Shown: positions 36,278 through 40,676 of the stretch, piece by piece
Position numbering within the stretch: position 1 is the first letter of the stretch
Layout of the letters: each line of letters opens with the position of its first letter
Source of the DNA: a phage
Sequence record: PX092659.1
Reading direction: 5' to 3' (one strand)
DNA: 64,000 nt
Translations under genes and position numbers: made by a program
Notes under the pieces: generated by a model
What the model saw: the letters and a program-made list of their open reading frames with translations, nothing else
What the model was told of the DNA's origin: nothing
The model's database searches: none

Positions 36278-37046
36278 ATATTCATAAATTAGGGAACAGC
36301 GAGCCGATTACGCTGAACTTGTCTTAATGTAAGATGCGTCGAGCACTAAGATTCGTTGAATAGAGTCGGTGGGTTAGTTGTAAAACTAGTACACAGGGGG
36401 CGGCAATCCCGGTTAGTGGCTAGAACGTGTAAAATGAGGCGTCTGAAACCTCTCCCCTAAACTCTTCTCTAATTTATAAATAGTGGGGTGTGGAAATCAC
36501 TTATGTAGTAGCACTGCCGTCCTAGTATAATTGGTATTATCAAGCCGTAACTGGTGGAAGATGTAGGTTCGAATCTTACGGTCGGTAAGAACTGGATAAC
36601 TGATGCTTTTAACGTAAAAGCTTCCGAGGTTAGTTGCGCACTGCCTAAACCACGCGGTAGTTGGTTCCAGGCTAACCAACCAGTCTGCTGAATAGTTTTA
36701 TTACGATTTAACTATGTCCAGACTAAAGAAGAACTTTAGAAGGTATTCTAGGATAGTGAAGTTCTTTCTCCATATCGGAGTAGTTTTTCAAGCTATCCAC
36801 AAAGTGGGAAATGCTGACATGAGAGATGTCACTAATGGTGCACAATAGCACAGGTAATTCGCGATAACTCCTGTTGAGTAGCAGCAAAAGGCGGGAAGTC
36901 ATGACCCCAAGCCTAACCGAGTCCTCAATATACCGCAGGACATAACCACTAAGTCACCCTGACTTAAACTGGAAAATAATAGACGTTACTGTATTTTGTC
37001 TTGAAATACTTAATGAGTGAGACTTATGACTCTCCCGGTATCGTCT

Positions 37047-37198: not shown

Positions 37199-38146
37199 AT
37201 GTTTAATACTAAAAATATGAAAGAACTGACTTCTGAGCAGAAAGTAATTCGTACTATTAAACGTTGGGGTATTGGTGCTGTAGTTGGTTTAGCAGGCTTG
37301 ATTCTAGCCTTTAATTCATATACTATTGTTTCTGATGGTACGGTTAAAACTCAAACATTTCTGGGTAAAGTAGATCCTAACCCAGTATTACCAGGTTTCC
37401 ATCTTGTAAACCCCTTTGCATCTTTCGACACTTTTAGTACAAAAGATATTGCTGTAAAATTAGATAAACTTCAAGTTCCTAGTCAGGATAAATTTAAATC
37501 CACTGTTGACCTGACTGTTATGTTGCAGTTTGATGGTTCTAAGGCACCGATTAACCGTATTAATGCGGGTACTCAGGATCAAGCGTTAGACAAATATGTA
37601 ACTGAAAAATTACTGTCTACTATTCGTGAGTTTGGTAAGTCTGTACCTAAAGCACAAGATTTGTTTGATGCTAAAATTCAGGCTCAATTGCAAACTGCAA
37701 TTCAACAGGAAGTTGAAGAGTATGCACGCCCATATGGTTATACAGTTAAGCAGGTATTCCTTCAGGATATTACTTTGCCACCGGTAATCATGGAACAGGT
37801 ACAGAATACCAAAGTTCGTGAAGAACAGGTTAATGCTGCTAAAGCTGAATTAGCTCGTGTTGAACAGGAAGCACAGCAAAAAGTTAAACAAGCAGAAGCA
37901 GATCGCGAAGCTCGTAATAACCAAGCTATTGCCAATGAGCGTGACGCAGATGCCAAACTGTACGCAGCTAAGAAAGAAGCTGAAGCTAACGCCGCGTTGC
38001 AACGTACCATTACTCCTGAGATGATTCGCTGGAAGCAACTGGAAGTTGAAATGATTCGTGCTCAGAAATACCAAGGTGGTGTACCGCAGACTGTGGTTGG
38101 CACTGGCTATGATGGCCAAATGATTATGGATATGCGTAATAAATAA
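37199..38146 (+). CDS. SPFH/band-7 (prohibitin/HflC-like) membrane protein
   Basis: 315 aa; N-terminal TM helix (IGAVVGLAGLILAF), SPFH-like core, C-terminal Ala/Glu/Gln-rich coiled coil. Confidence 0.7.
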   Translation: MFNTKNMKELTSEQKVIRTIKRWGIGAVVGLAGLILAFNSYTIVSDGTVKTQTFLGKVDPNPVLPGFHLVNPFASFDTFSTKDIAVKLDKLQVPSQDKFKSTVDLTVMLQFDGSKAPINRINAGTQDQALDKYVTEKLLSTIREFGKSVPKAQDLFDAKIQAQLQTAIQQEVEEYARPYGYTVKQVFLQDITLPPVIMEQVQNTKVREEQVNAAKAELARVEQEAQQKVKQAEADREARNNQAIANERDADAKLYAAKKEAEANAALQRTITPEMIRWKQLEVEMIRAQKYQGGVPQTVVGTGYDGQMIMDMRNK

Positions 38147-38170
38147 TACCCGCATGTAACATCTGAAATA

Positions 38171-38205
38171 AGCCCTGCGTTTCCTGGAGAGCGCAGGGCT
38201 TTTCT
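38171..38205 (+). terminator. rho-independent terminator
   Basis: AGCCCTGCG ... CGCAGGGCT stem followed by TTTTCTG. Confidence 0.75.
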
Positions 38206-38221
38206 GTATTTAAGATAAAAG

Positions 38222-38256
38222 AAAAGCCCCTAAGTCTTTCGACTAGGGGCTTTATT
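38222..38256. terminator. bidirectional rho-independent terminator
   Basis: GCCCCTAAGTC tttc GACTAGGGGC with T-runs on both strands; ends the plus-strand SPFH unit and the minus-strand pair 38471-39901. Confidence 0.7.
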
Positions 38257-38470
38257 GTTTGGTTCTTTAGAACCATATACTCTTGTTACAGCAACCACCC
38301 ATACGGGAGGCCAATCTTGACTGAAAATCTACTCTAGGGGGCAGGATAAGAGTAGGCTTAAAGGCAAACGGATTGAACGCCGGTATTTGTGTAAACATTG
38401 CTGGAGAGCAACAACGTGCTACAGGCATTGGGCAGCACGAAATAGATTTTCTGCAACACATAATTTCTCC

Positions 38471-38887
38471 TTAGGAGTTATTACCACCATTTTGAGCTTT
38501 TGCAACTTGGCTTTGGCAGAAGCTATTAAACTTACCCATAAGTGATACAAGCTGTTTCCCATCCTCTGTCTTTGCGAAGTCTTCGAAAAGGGCTAGTACT
38601 GCCTGTCCTTCCGCAGAAACCTGCGGTTGTTGGGTTTGTTGCTGAACTTGCTGCTGAGGCACCTGTTGCTGCATTTGTTGAGGCATTTGCGACTGCCCGC
38701 TCATTTGCTGCATCATTTGCATAGGACTCACACTTCCAGGGTTTTGCTGGAGTTGTTGCTGCATCTGTTGCGCTTCTGCTAAACGCTGTTGCAATTGTTG
38801 TAAGTAGGGGTTATCCAGACCCGGAATGGGCTGCTGGGAGCCCATACTTTGATTAAGTCCGTTATTTACAAAACCATATTTACTCAT
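38471..38887 (-). CDS. hypothetical Gln-rich low-complexity protein
   Basis: 138 aa; about 35 percent Gln (QQLQQRLAEAQQMQQQLQQ...); part of the inverted two-gene module. Confidence 0.5.
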   Translation of the reverse strand: MSKYGFVNNGLNQSMGSQQPIPGLDNPYLQQLQQRLAEAQQMQQQLQQNPGSVSPMQMMQQMSGQSQMPQQMQQQVPQQQVQQQTQQPQVSAEGQAVLALFEDFAKTEDGKQLVSLMGKFNSFCQSQVAKAQNGGNNS

Positions 38888-38908
38888 AATGGGCTCCTCC
38901 CCTTAATA

Positions 38909-39901
38909 TTAAGCCGGCAGTTTAGCCTGCAGACCAGCCAGAGTCTGAGTGATAGCACCAAGACTTACAGCGATTTGATTAATTACCTGACCGTTAGCAC
39001 CGTTACCCGCAGCGATTGCTTCACGTAGGCGACATGCATCTAACTCATCCTGAATACGAGCAGTAGTTACACCAGCGATAGCAGTCTGAAGTTCACAGCA
39101 ACATTCAGCGATCTGACGTTCCAGAGAGTTCTGGTTAGCACACATCTGAGCCTGAACAGCGGCAAACTGGTTATTAGTTTGTAAAGTCTGCTGGAAAGCG
39201 ATCTGTGCAGAATCAAACTTATCTTGTGCACGAGCTATCTGATTAGCTGCGAAAGATTGATCAATCTGGCGAGAAAGATCGAACTGACCCTGAATAACGT
39301 TGCGAGTTTCCTGACAGATCTGATTAGACAGATTAGCACCTGTACCATAGATCGTAGTTAGTACAGACTGAGTATCACGGCTCTGGTTTTGGGATGTCTG
39401 GCTAAACCCATTGTTAACTGCGCTTAAAACAGCTCCAGTACCCTGGTTAGCTTCTGTACGAGTAGTGTTAATAGCTGCTAGAATACTAGCGGTATCTTGG
39501 TTCTGAAGTACTGCATCAACTGCGGTACCATCACCAACTACACCACGTCCACCGAATCCACCGAAACCACCGAATCCGCCTGTTAATAGAGCACCGATTA
39601 GGATAGCTCCGAATAGTCCCATACCTTCACCACCGAAAGCACCTGCGTTTGCTGGGTAACCACCCAGTAGGCCAGGGAAGCCACTAGTAAATACGTTTAC
39701 TGGTTCTTGCATTTTATGTTTTCCATATTTATGACAATGTTCATCGTCATCTTCTTCATCATCGTGTTCACGATGTTTTTCTTCGTAGGCTCTGACCTTC
39801 TCCCACTTTTTCTTATCTGATTCCTCGTGACGGTGCAGTTCTGCTGCAACGCTAGCGACGGTCTCAGGACTCTTAGCTACTTCTTCTGTCATTTTTGACA
39901 C
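38909..39901 (-). CDS. hypothetical membrane protein with glycine-zipper TM segment and Gln/Asn/Cys-rich C-terminal domain
   Basis: 330 aa; acidic/His-rich N-terminus, Gly-zipper TM (GLFGAILIGALLTGGFGGFGGFGG), Q/N/T-rich C-terminal half with Cys clusters (AECCCELQ); AGGAGGTG RBS. Confidence 0.55.
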   Translation of the reverse strand: MSKMTEEVAKSPETVASVAAELHRHEESDKKKWEKVRAYEEKHREHDDEEDDDEHCHKYGKHKMQEPVNVFTSGFPGLLGGYPANAGAFGGEGMGLFGAILIGALLTGGFGGFGGFGGRGVVGDGTAVDAVLQNQDTASILAAINTTRTEANQGTGAVLSAVNNGFSQTSQNQSRDTQSVLTTIYGTGANLSNQICQETRNVIQGQFDLSRQIDQSFAANQIARAQDKFDSAQIAFQQTLQTNNQFAAVQAQMCANQNSLERQIAECCCELQTAIAGVTTARIQDELDACRLREAIAAGNGANGQVINQIAVSLGAITQTLAGLQAKLPA

Positions 39902-39952
39902 CTCCTAGTATATAGAAAATGTGTGTCTCTTTGATCACTCATCCATAACATA

Positions 39953-39981
39953 TACTTTACACTACCCCAGCGAAAATGTCA
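39953..39981 (-). promoter_or_regulatory. second promoter class (minus): TTGACATTTTCGC-type
   Basis: Reverse complement reads TTGACA ttttcgctggggtagtg TAAAGT; shares the 13-nt TTGACATTTTCGC with 9576-9604. Confidence 0.55.
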
Positions 39982-40098
39982 AGGGGTCTTTAAAAATTGC
40001 CCCTGAATTTTTAGTGGGGTCACAAATTTTGGTCCTCACCATTTATCTGCTATCCTTAAGTGCCCTATGATTTTCCTCTAAAAAGTTAAAAAATTTGA

Positions 40099-40127
40099 TT
40101 GCTTGAATGCTAAATTCTCTGTATAAT
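40099..40127 (+). promoter_or_regulatory. sigma70-type early promoter: TTGCTT-N17-TATAAT
   Basis: Cassette match. Confidence 0.6.
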
Positions 40128-40157
40128 ATATCTATAAATTTGAAAGAGGAACCAAAT

Positions 40158-40676
40158 ATGAATGTTGATGAGCTAACACAGCACCTCTTATCTAGAGGAT
40201 TTGATACAGATAAATATCATTGCTGGTTAAGTCCGGAAGGATGGCTAACAGTCCCGTTGTATGACTTCTCTGGGATGTTGAGGGGCTATCAAACTTATAA
40301 TCCTTCTGCTCCAAAAGGTCATGGTAAGTGCCCCTTTGAAGCTAAATACTTTACTTATTCTACTACCCAGTGTGTATGGGGACTAGAAACTCTCAATGGA
40401 GATGAAAAAGTAGTATTGATTGCTGAATCTGTATTTAAGGCAGTTGCGTTACATAATGCTGGTTATCCAGCCCTAGCAATGTTGGGTTCTTCTCCAGGAA
40501 AAGCGTTATTAAAGCAACTGAAATTACTACCTTTTAAATTGGTAGCTGTCGGAGATAATGATCCTGCGGGTGAAAAATTTGCTAGAAAATTAAACGGCTT
40601 TGTTTCTCCCGTAGATGTGGATGAGATGTCTACCGAAAACTTGAAAAATTTTCTTGCTATGAAGCTAAATTTCTAA
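40158..40676 (+). CDS. small TOPRIM-domain-like protein
   Basis: ATG 40158 after GAAAGAGGAAC RBS (track ORF extends to 40107); TOPRIM-like Glu (LIAESVFK) and DxD (AVGDNDPAG). Confidence 0.45.
   Translation: MNVDELTQHLLSRGFDTDKYHCWLSPEGWLTVPLYDFSGMLRGYQTYNPSAPKGHGKCPFEAKYFTYSTTQCVWGLETLNGDEKVVLIAESVFKAVALHNAGYPALAMLGSSPGKALLKQLKLLPFKLVAVGDNDPAGEKFARKLNGFVSPVDVDEMSTENLKNFLAMKLNF

What the first reader, a model, noticed from the sequence alone, without database searches (positions are those of the whole stretch)
38222..39981. Oppositely oriented, self-contained two-gene module with its own TTGACA promoter
In a 40-kb block where every other gene is on the plus strand, two minus-strand genes (330 aa and 138 aa) are insulated by a bidirectional terminator (38222-38256) and driven by a consensus-like TTGACA-N17 promoter (39953-39981) unlike the phage early cassette. 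Both products are compositionally extreme: an acidic/His-rich N-terminus, a glycine-zipper TM segment, a Gln/Asn/Thr-rich C-terminal half with Cys clusters (CCCELQ), and a 35 percent Gln protein. I recognise no domain. Insulation, a host-like promoter and position beside a tRNA suggest a moron or accessory cassette (host takeover, exclusion or membrane-targeting) rather than core phage function.
Basis: partly seen in the sequence, partly recalled or inferred. Interest (0 to 1): 0.65.

Follow-up and report, generated by a model that had tools for sequence, protein, structure and literature searches.

The report
T5 accessory three-gene operon T5.077-079
This is the T5-type phage's already annotated, dispensable operon T5.077-T5.079 (three genes, not two, with their own promoter and two-way terminator); its function is still unknown, but the cassette also turns up in unrelated phages and its main protein belongs to a large, unstudied family marked by a triple-cysteine motif.

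Summary
The window is a Tequintavirus (99.3% to phiLLS). The minus-strand unit is the homologue of T5 genes T5.077, T5.078 and T5.079. The T5 reference record already annotates promoter P12 and an "efficient bidirectional rho-independent terminator" here.

- **Accessory.** The unit lies in T5's st0 deletable region. All three genes scored "Not Fit" in a published knock-down screen. About half of close relatives lack it, with three different deletion scars.
- **Still selected and mobile.** A and B are under purifying selection (dN/dS 0.07-0.23). The same promoter-A-B-C-terminator cassette occurs at the same site in distant Demerecviridae. It also occurs antisense between Q and the lysis genes of a lambdoid phage, and in a 62-kb Mu-portal-type phage.
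- **Uncharacterised proteins.** A belongs to a family of at least 563 clusters. Of 144 full-length members, 133 carry a CCC motif. Pfam, PDB, PADLOC and NCBIfam gave no match.

The function is not known. My best guess, at low confidence, is a membrane-associated, cysteine/histidine-linked complex that acts in phage competition or host defence.

The parts
39954..39995 (-). Promoter, equivalent to T5 P12. It has an UP-like TTTTAAAG (39995-39988), a -35 TTGACA (39982-39977), a 17-nt spacer and a -10 TAAAGT (39959-39954).
   Evidence: Consensus scan; T5 annotation 'promoter P12'; core invariant in T5, Stitch, L012 and L011 although the A proteins are only about 40-46% identical. No transcription data were found for this promoter.
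39893..39953 (-). 5' leader with the ribosome-binding site GGAGG (39905-39901), 8 nt before the ATG.
   Evidence: Sequence; identical in T5 and Stitch. No significant RNA fold (z -0.5).
38909..39892 (-). Gene A (T5.077 homologue, 327 aa). It has an N-terminal charged helix with an L-x-x-H-E-x-x-D motif and an acidic/His-rich tract. A Gly-rich hydrophobic segment follows (GLFGAILIGALLTGGFGGFGGFGGRG). The C-terminal ~200 residues are Q/N/T/A-rich helices with 5 Cys, including ECCCE.
   Evidence: ORF; PHROG 8119, E 4e-203, unknown function; dN/dS 0.13-0.20; AlphaFold2 gives long helices 137-327 at low confidence and helix 15-48 at pLDDT about 90; family of 563 clusters; CCC in 133/144 full-length members.
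38471..38887 (-). Gene B (T5.078 homologue, 138 aa). It has an N-terminal helix (PYLQQLQQRLAEAQ), a disordered Gln/Pro-rich linker of variable length, and a conserved C-terminal helical hairpin (EGQAVLALFEDFAKTEDGKQLVSLMGKFNSFCQS).
   Evidence: ORF; PHROG 7894; alignments A4 and A5; AlphaFold2 hairpin 91-132 at pLDDT about 80; dN/dS 0.07-0.23; found only next to A.
38267..38461 (-). The peptide starts MCC, has four Cys-Cys pairs, is Pro/Phe-rich, carries a net charge of about +7, and has no signal peptide or lipobox.
   Evidence: ORF with RBS; annotated in T5; intact in 10/10 T5-like loci parsed. An MCC-initiated Cys-pair ORF of 60-69 aa follows B in all five highly diverged modules.
38222..38256 (.). 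Bidirectional intrinsic terminator (T5 ter1) that closes the operon.
   Evidence: Folds on both strands, -20.4 and -20.6 kcal/mol, z -3.4 and -4.6; T5 annotation 'efficient bidirectional rho-independent transcription terminator'. A G+C-rich hairpin followed by a T run follows C in L011, L013, L014 and L015 (sequence); the L013 hairpin was detected on both strands.
38170..38201 (+). Boundary element, not part of the operon: the terminator of the convergent SPFH gene. It carries the GCGC consensus of T5's major DNA nick.
   Evidence: T5 annotation 'major DNA single-chain interruption'. It is retained in phages that have lost the module.

Best explanation
This is an autonomous, dispensable accessory operon of the moron type, the homologue of T5.077-T5.078-T5.079.

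**Shown**
- A sigma-70-type promoter, three tightly packed genes and a two-way terminator form one unit, antisense to the surrounding early genes.
- The unit is old in Demerecviridae, is kept under purifying selection where present, is often lost by deletion, and has moved as a whole into unrelated phages.

**Inferred mechanism**
- Host RNA polymerase transcribes the operon on its own, independently of the neighbouring early transcription units.
- Protein A oligomerises through its long helices and associates with the inner membrane through its Gly-rich hydrophobic segment.
- Its conserved CCC motif and other cysteines, together with the His/acidic tract, form metal-thiolate or disulfide links.
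- Protein B is an adaptor. Its conserved helical hairpin and N-terminal helix each bind a partner, joined by a flexible Gln-rich tether.
- The basic Cys-pair peptide C joins the same cysteine-based assembly.
- The complex changes a property of the infected or lysogenic cell envelope that matters only under some conditions. Exclusion of competing phages or interplay with host defences is the most likely such condition.
For: **Architecture:**, and the T5 annotation.

**Accessory status**
- Location in the st0 deletion region.
- CRISPRi-ART scored all three genes 'Not Fit'.
- 223 module-bearing records against 442 with polymerase at least 90% identical.
- Three different deletion scars: microhomology TCTGTAT in SIA3lw, CTGCAAC in SESL, and a remnant in S113.

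**Selection:** dN/dS is 0.13-0.20 for A and 0.07-0.23 for B.

**Mobility as a unit**
- Same site in the tRNA region of distant Demerecviridae contigs L011 and L012.
- Antisense between antiterminator Q and holin-lysozyme-Rz in lambdoid contigs L013 and L014.
- Present in the 62-kb contig L015, which carries a Mu-type portal.
- In each case an upstream TTGAC-type -35 hexamer is visible (L011-L014; L015 less clear), and an MCC peptide gene and a terminator hairpin are present.

**Complex formation**
- A and B are each found in 223 phage records with the same breakdown by organism name. B was found only next to A in every locus examined.
- All eight loci in which B and C were seen have an A with the N-terminal extension. 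The five distant A-like loci examined (L005, L008, L041, L049, L052) lack the extension and have no recognisable B or C next door.
- All three proteins carry conserved cysteines.

**Membrane and metal hints**
- Hydrophobic Gly-rich segment with Kyte-Doolittle 19-mer mean 1.72.
- His-rich tracts recur in distant members.
- CCC is present in 133/144 full-length members.
Against: - No experiment and no homology ties the proteins to any function. Pfam, NCBIfam, PADLOC, PDB sequence search and fold search gave nothing significant.
- The hydrophobic segment is marginal and is weaker in several homologues. AlphaFold2 gives it low confidence.
- The topology is unresolved. B and C have no export signals, so either A's cysteine-rich domain is cytoplasmic, or A's cysteines do not meet those of B and C.
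- The module is almost absent from bacterial genomes: 1 weak hit in 185,579 species representatives, and none for the lambdoid copy of the module in E. coli genomes. The moron-in-a-lysogen picture therefore rests on a few metagenomic contigs.
- The promoter's timing and activity have not been measured.
Confidence: 0.4

Rival explanations
1. Anti-defence or host-takeover complex acting in the cytoplasm. A, anchored at the membrane with both ends inside the cell, and B sequester or inactivate a host factor such as a defence sensor. C supplies a thiol-rich cofactor or decoy.
For: - The module sits in a counter-defence neighbourhood. It lies in the phage tRNA array next to T5.076, which the CRISPRi-ART re-annotation lists as subverting retron defence.
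- In Epseptimaviruses it lies next to NadR/PnuC NAD-salvage genes.
- B and C lack export signals, and such genes are typically dispensable on laboratory hosts.
Against: - It is transcribed antisense to the other counter-defence genes and from its own promoter.
- There is no similarity to any known anti-defence protein.
- In the lambdoid phage it sits where lysogen-expressed morons sit.
Confidence: 0.2
2. Accessory envelope-fusion or lysis-modulating device. A acts like a spanin or a viral fusion protein, with a Gly-rich fusion-peptide-like segment plus coiled coils cross-linked by cysteines. It modulates lysis or membrane integrity.
For: - A's architecture resembles a hydrophobic Gly-rich segment followed by heptad-like helices with Cys.
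- crAss-like homologues are annotated 'spike protein/glycoprotein' and lie beside a LysB/FtsL-like gene.
- One distant homologue lies near an M15 endolysin.
- The lambdoid copy abuts the lysis cassette.
Against: - T5-like phages and the lambdoid phage have their own holin, endolysin and Rz-type spanins elsewhere.
- C has no lipobox.
- The operon is antisense to the lysis genes in the lambdoid phage.
- Knock-down has no effect.
- No fold or sequence match to spanins or fusion proteins was found.
Confidence: 0.12
3. Metal or thiol handling. The His/acidic tract, the CCC coiled coil and the Cys-pair peptide bind or buffer a metal (Zn, Ni, Cu or Fe-S) or reactive compounds for the benefit of phage enzymes.
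For: - His-rich tracts recur in far-apart members, for example HHYHHHHHEH in the Epseptimavirus-type proteins P0008 and P0013.
- CCC is nearly universal, and C has 8 Cys in 64 residues.
- A weak ferritin-like neighbour lies next to one distant homologue (below threshold).
Against: - There is no match to any known metal-binding family.
- The Cys count of C varies from 4 to 9 between modules.
- This could be a property of the complex rather than its purpose.
Confidence: 0.1
4. Virion-associated fibre or cargo protein. A is a minor structural coiled-coil protein.
For: crAss-like homologues lie in the tail/structural block and are annotated 'outer capsid protein/viral fiber'. Distant homologues follow large tail-fibre-like genes.
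Against: - In T5-likes the operon lies in the early/tRNA region with its own promoter. It is dispensable and absent from half of otherwise near-identical phages.
- To my knowledge T5 virion proteomics does not list these proteins, but I did not check this here.
Confidence: 0.05
5. Decaying selfish remnant with no present function.
For: Frequent deletions and no fitness effect in the laboratory.
Against: - Purifying selection acts on A and B.
- ORFs were intact in every T5-like locus the script parsed (10 of 17).
- The promoter and the three-gene order are conserved across about 40% protein identity and across phage families.
Confidence: 0.05

Closest known systems
Bacteriophage T5 genes T5.077-T5.078-T5.079 (T5p075-077) with promoter P12 and terminator ter1
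   Same: Same locus, order, orientation, promoter and terminator. A aligns at 81% identity by tblastn (89% in the codon alignment), B at 96% and C at 98%.
   Different: Only sequence-level differences. T5 offers no function: all three are 'hypothetical protein', and T5.079 is a PHROG singleton.
Phage morons (for example lambda bor and lom, HK97 gp15): autonomous promoter-gene-terminator units
   Same: It has its own promoter and terminator, sits between genes of another transcription unit, is patchily distributed, is dispensable, and occupies the Q-to-lysis interval in a lambdoid phage.
   Different: It has three genes rather than one, and here it lies in a strictly virulent phage. Absences are deletions of an old resident rather than empty insertion sites. 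Third-codon-position G+C (0.32) shows that the G+C excess reflects amino-acid content, not recent import.
Two-component spanins (Rz/Rz1, P2 LysB/LysC)
   Same: A membrane-anchored coiled-coil protein with cysteines is paired with a small Pro-rich Cys-containing peptide.
   Different: C has no lipoprotein signal. There is a third, Gln-rich protein. The genes are not embedded or overlapping and are not in the lysis cassette. The host phages have true spanins.
Colicin-type operons (toxin, immunity, small lysis peptide)
   Same: A three-gene operon of large, medium and small products with a Gly-rich region and a long helical region in the large protein, closed by a terminator.
   Different: There is no LexA box in the promoter, no recognisable cytotoxic or receptor domain, and no lipobox in the small peptide. 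It is carried by phages, not plasmids.

Membership tests
Moron (autonomous accessory transcription unit in a phage genome) | Own promoter upstream of the gene(s) | tested here: met
   TTGACA-17-TAAAGT, equivalent to T5's annotated P12. The core is invariant across modules with about 40% protein identity. Activity was not measured.
Moron (autonomous accessory transcription unit in a phage genome) | Own factor-independent terminator downstream | tested here: met
   The hairpin at 38222-38256 folds on both strands. T5 annotates it as an 'efficient bidirectional terminator'. The same arrangement is seen in L013.
Moron (autonomous accessory transcription unit in a phage genome) | Present in some close relatives and absent from others; dispensable | tested here: met
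   199 of 459 flank-matching records carry the full module. It lies in the st0 deletion region, and all three genes scored 'Not Fit'.
Moron (autonomous accessory transcription unit in a phage genome) | Acquired by insertion, with atypical composition | tested here: inconclusive
   G+C is 45.5% against 39.0% for the window (0 of 589 same-size windows reach it). But third-position G+C of A is 0.32, so the excess comes from amino-acid content. Empty sites are deletion scars. The cassette is found in other phage families.
Spanin pair (i-spanin / o-spanin) | Small partner is an outer-membrane lipoprotein with a signal peptide and lipobox | tested here: not met
   C starts MCCRKS with no hydrophobic leader.
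Spanin pair (i-spanin / o-spanin) | Located in the lysis cassette and needed for lysis | tested here: not met
   Holin, endolysin and Rz-like spanins lie about 14-17 kb away in phiLLS. The lambdoid host phage has its own Rz. Knock-down has no fitness effect.
Pfam glycine-zipper membrane families | Match to a Gly-zipper profile | tested here: not met
   No Pfam family reaches threshold for A or for 18 relatives. Only a small-xxx-small pattern (AILIGALLT) and GGF repeats are seen.
Known anti-phage defence systems (PADLOC) | Match to a defence-protein profile | tested here: not met
   No hit for A, B or C at E up to 1.
Class I viral fusion / 'spike glycoprotein' (the label given to crAss-like homologues) | Sequence or fold similarity to a solved fusion protein | tested here: not met
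   No PDB sequence hit at E up to 1. The best fold matches have E above 3 (Vipp1, vimentin), obtained with a low-confidence model.
Superinfection-exclusion membrane proteins | Blocks entry of other phages when expressed | not testable with these tools
   This class has no defining sequence signature, so it needs plating assays.

The most novel reading that the evidence does not exclude
The operon could be the founding example of an unrecognised, horizontally mobile phage system. It would be built on a widespread triple-cysteine coiled-coil protein family: at least 563 sequence clusters, spanning T5-like, lambdoid and crAss-like phages. In this subfamily the protein has recruited a Gln-rich adaptor and an MCC-initiated Cys-pair peptide. 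Together they would form a metal- or disulfide-linked membrane assembly with a new role in phage competition, envelope remodelling or counter-defence.
Probability: 0.3. Interest if true: 0.7.

Novelty: new member of a known kind. Interest (0 to 1): 0.45.

Why it matters
T5 is a model phage, yet this conserved and mobile operon has no assigned role. The work here turns it into a defined target. It is a three-gene unit with clear boundaries, natural deletion variants for comparison, and homologous cassettes in other phage types. It also has a sharp family signature, the CCC motif in a long helix, shared by hundreds of phage protein clusters including gut crAss-like phages. A function found for it would probably annotate a large block of viral dark matter. 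It would also add to the list of conditionally useful phage accessory systems.

Tried and rejected
**Searches that gave nothing usable**
- Pfam, NCBIfam, PADLOC and PHROGs: only unknown-function PHROGs 8119, 7894, 16490 and 9288.
- PDB profile searches with the A and B alignments: no hit at E up to 1.
- AlphaFold2 of A: pLDDT 55, long helices only. AlphaFold2 of B: a small hairpin.
- Foldseek against PDB: nothing for B, and E above 3 for A.
- Rfam: no RNA family inside the module.
- Bacterial genome scan: one weak hit only. E. coli genomes have no copy of the lambdoid-type module.
- Literature: no paper mentions T5.077-079 or these PHROGs outside the CRISPRi-ART supplement. The T5 promoter study did not test P12.
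- Contexts of distant homologues were uninformative or the contigs were too short.

**Readings rejected**
- The "cAMP-dependent protein kinase catalytic subunit" label on B in some records is, in my judgement, an artefact of Gln-rich low complexity. Pfam finds no kinase domain.
- Spanin pair and colicin-type operon (see the membership tests).
- Recent foreign import on the basis of G+C.
Full report
**What the window is.** The region matches Tequintavirus genomes. The best match is phiLLS at 99.3% over 1,951 bases, and 248 phage records match in all. The window carries the T5-type array of 24 tRNA genes.

**Checking the observation.**
- ORF listing shows two minus-strand ORFs at 38909-39901 (330 aa from a GTG) and 38471-38887 (138 aa).
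- In the annotated phiLLS genome these two are the only minus-strand CDSs in a plus-strand block of about 38 kb.
- The hairpin at 38222-38256 folds on both strands: -20.4 kcal/mol on plus and -20.6 kcal/mol on minus, with z-scores of -3.4 and -4.6. On the minus strand it is followed by UUUUCUUUUAU.
- A separate plus-strand terminator at 38170-38201 ends the convergent SPFH gene.
- The promoter-like site TTGACA-17-TAAAGT lies at 39982..39954 on the minus strand. The scan found fewer such sites than shuffled sequence gives (6 against 9.3), so the consensus match proves nothing by itself.

**It is already annotated in T5.** The T5 records AY734508 and NC_005859 annotate this exact unit. They list promoter P12, three CDSs (T5p075-077, also numbered T5.077-T5.079) and an [quoted passage not shown]. 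A "major DNA single-chain interruption" is annotated just beyond it. The whole unit lies inside the st0 deletion interval.

- *There are three genes.* A 64-aa ORF (38267-38461, minus strand) follows B after 9 nt. It has the ribosome-binding site AAGGAG and stops 10 nt before the terminator. Its product is MCCRKSISCCPMPVARCCSPAMFTQIPAFNPFAFKPTLILPPRVDFQSRLASRMGGCCNKSIWF.
- *A is 327 aa.* It starts at ATG 39892 (MTEEV) as in T5. The GTG at 39901 lies inside the GGAGG ribosome-binding site.
- *B is less Gln-rich than stated.* It is 27.5% Gln overall and 47% in its central part.

**Is gene C real?**
- It is intact in all 10 T5-like loci I parsed.
- A 60-69-aa ORF that starts MCC (or MCGCC), carries Cys-Cys pairs and is Pro/Phe-rich and basic follows B directly in five modules. 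Those modules have no DNA similarity to this one (L011, L012, L013/L014, L015).
- Within T5-likes, C shows unusually low synonymous divergence (dS 0.02-0.24, against 0.4-0.75 for A), and its dN/dS is noisy. I have no explanation for that. The RNA of this stretch folds better than shuffles (z -4.1), but that figure includes the terminator.

**Accessory status.**
- A published genome-wide knock-down screen of T5 scores T5.077, T5.078 and T5.079 as "Not Fit" and lists them as "unknown function" (PMC11879866, supplementary files 8 and 16).
- A and B are each found by tblastn in 223 phage records, with the same breakdown by organism name. A DNA polymerase at least 90% identical is found in 442 records.
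- A search with the module plus its flanks finds 459 records, and only 199 of them hold the whole stretch.
- Three module-less relatives show three different scars:
  - SIA3lw has a clean loss between two copies of TCTGTAT.
  - SESL has an internal deletion between two copies of CTGCAAC, fusing the 5' end of A to the start of C.
  - S113 keeps only a remnant of the 3' end of C.
- The absences are therefore repeated deletions of an older resident.
- Where the module is kept, A and B are under purifying selection (dN/dS 0.13-0.20 and 0.07-0.23). A has a fast-changing patch around codons 160-220.

**The cassette moves as a unit.** Homologues of A at 36-44% identity led to other contigs.
- In two roughly 110-kb Demerecviridae-like contigs (L011, L012) the module sits in the tRNA array, again antisense to its neighbours.
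- In lambdoid contigs (L013, L014) it sits antisense between antiterminator Q and the holin-lysozyme-Rz genes, a classic moron site.
- In a 62-kb contig with a Mu-type portal (L015), related to the unverified record "Pseudomonas phage RSP", it lies beside the packaging genes.
- In every case the order is A, B, C followed by a strong hairpin. An upstream TTGAC-type -35 hexamer is visible in L011-L014 and is less clear in L015. The L013 hairpin scores as a terminator on both strands.
- The promoter core TTTTAAAG-N5-TTGACA-N17-TA(A/G)AGT is invariant between this window, T5, Stitch, L012 and L011, although the A proteins are only about 40-46% identical.
- The module is almost absent from one-per-species bacterial genomes (one weak hit). 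No copy of the lambdoid-type module was found in E. coli genomes.
- Its G+C (45.5%) exceeds every other same-size stretch of the window (0 of 589). Third-position G+C of A is only 0.32, so the excess reflects Gly/Ala/Gln content, not recent import.

**The proteins.**
- *Protein A* has four parts:
  - a confidently predicted N-terminal helix (residues 15-48, pLDDT about 90) with a recurrent L-x-x-H-E-x-x-D motif;
  - an acidic/His-rich tract of variable length, which reaches HHYHHHHHEH in the Epseptimavirus-type proteins P0008 and P0013;
  - a Gly-rich hydrophobic segment;
  - about 200 residues of long helices rich in Gln, Asn, Thr and Ala, with five cysteines.
- *Hydrophobic segment of A.* It just passes a Kyte-Doolittle transmembrane threshold here (1.72). 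It is weaker in several homologues, so I treat membrane insertion as likely but not shown.
- *Family of A.* A profile search of 1.84 billion representative proteins finds 563 clusters at E up to 0.001, and 114 at E up to 1e-10. They fall in PHROGs 8119, 16490 and 9288, all of unknown function, with no Pfam family. Of 144 full-length members, 133 carry CCC, usually as [A/C]-x-C-C-C-[E/D].
- *crAss-like branch.* One branch belongs to crAss-like gut phages. There the gene lies in the tail/structural block and is labelled "spike protein/glycoprotein" or "outer capsid protein/viral fiber". I could not substantiate those labels.
- *Distant members.* They lack the N-terminal extension, and none of the five distant loci I examined has a recognisable B or C next door. 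All eight loci in which B and C were seen have the extension. This suggests that B docks on the N-terminal part of A.
- *Protein B* has an N-terminal helix, a disordered Gln/Pro-rich linker of variable length, and a strongly conserved C-terminal helical hairpin with an invariant Cys. B is a narrow family (122 proteins), and in every locus I examined it lies next to A.

**Mechanism.**
- *Shown:* one autonomous promoter-three genes-terminator unit that is dispensable, selected, often lost, and mobile.
- *Inferred:* host RNA polymerase expresses it independently of the neighbouring early transcription units. A oligomerises through its helices and associates with the membrane. Conserved cysteines in all three proteins, plus the His tract, hold the assembly together through metal or disulfide links. 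B is a tethered adaptor.
- *Purpose:* conditional, most likely competition with other phages or interplay with host defences.
- *Confidence:* about 0.85 that it is an accessory, self-contained, mobile operon. About 0.5 that the products form a membrane-associated complex. No more than 0.25 for any single biological role. The 0.4 given for the best explanation is a compromise between these.
- *Topology problem:* B and C have no export signals. Either A's Cys-rich domain is cytoplasmic, or A's cysteines do not meet those of B and C.

**Rivals.**
- A cytoplasmic anti-defence complex is favoured by the neighbourhood: the tRNA array, T5.076 listed as subverting retron defence, and NadR/PnuC in Epseptimaviruses.
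- A spanin-like or fusion-like accessory is favoured by A's architecture and by some contexts. It is disfavoured because the host phages have their own spanins and C has no lipobox.
- Metal or thiol handling, a virion protein, and a decaying remnant are less likely. Purifying selection argues against the remnant.

**Novelty.** The transcription unit itself is already annotated in T5. The following appear to be new:
- gene C is conserved far beyond T5, although PHROGs treats T5.079 as a singleton;
- the cassette's presence in lambdoid and Mu-portal-type phages;
- the repeated deletion scars;
- the size of the A family and its CCC signature.

I file it as a new member of a known kind, a moron-type accessory operon whose protein content has not been characterised.

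Noticed in passing
window 38170-38201 (+): The terminator hairpin of the SPFH gene contains GAGCGCAG. This matches the consensus that the T5 records mark as a 'major DNA single-chain interruption' (one of the nicks characteristic of T5 DNA) at the equivalent position.
   Followed up: partly
window 38267-38461 (-): Gene C has far lower synonymous divergence among T5-like phages (dS 0.02-0.24) than A and B (0.4-0.75). The RNA of this stretch folds better than shuffles (z -4.1, terminator included). This may indicate a nucleotide-level constraint, or a recent recombination sweep.
   Followed up: partly
window 36516-36587 (+): A tRNA-like match in Rfam (30.7 bits, just above gathering score) that ARAGORN did not call. 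It lies in the stretch that corresponds to T5's 'RNAX' stable RNA of unknown function.
   Followed up: no
window 40107-40676 (+): The divergent neighbour is the Toprim 'DNA primase-like' gene, homologous to T5.076. The CRISPRi-ART re-annotation lists T5.076 as subverting retron-mediated defence. Its early promoter -10 (TCTGTATAAT) is one end of the microhomology deletion that removed the module in phage SIA3lw.
   Followed up: partly
L003 (Salmonella phage Stitch) 1010-2744: In Epseptimaviruses the promoter side of the module is flanked by a NadR-like NMN adenylyltransferase and a PnuC transporter instead of the Toprim gene. The module therefore borders different accessory cargo in different genera.
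   Followed up: no
L005, L041, L049 (metagenomic phage contigs): Distant A-like genes are followed, three to four genes downstream, by a DUF7841 (PF25223) gene in three unrelated contigs. This is a recurrent synteny of unknown meaning. L005 also appears to use a recoded stop codon.
   Followed up: partly
window 37199-38146 (+): The convergent neighbour is an SPFH/band-7 membrane protein (Pfam E 2e-17), annotated 'lipoprotein' in T5. It is retained in phages that lost the module, so the two are not functionally tied by co-occurrence.
   Followed up: partly
phage records (e.g. AY587007, JLBYU40, HMD-P4): Gene B is annotated 'cAMP-dependent protein kinase catalytic subunit' in several GenBank records. 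Pfam finds no kinase domain, so the label looks like a low-complexity (poly-Gln) artefact that has propagated.
   Followed up: yes
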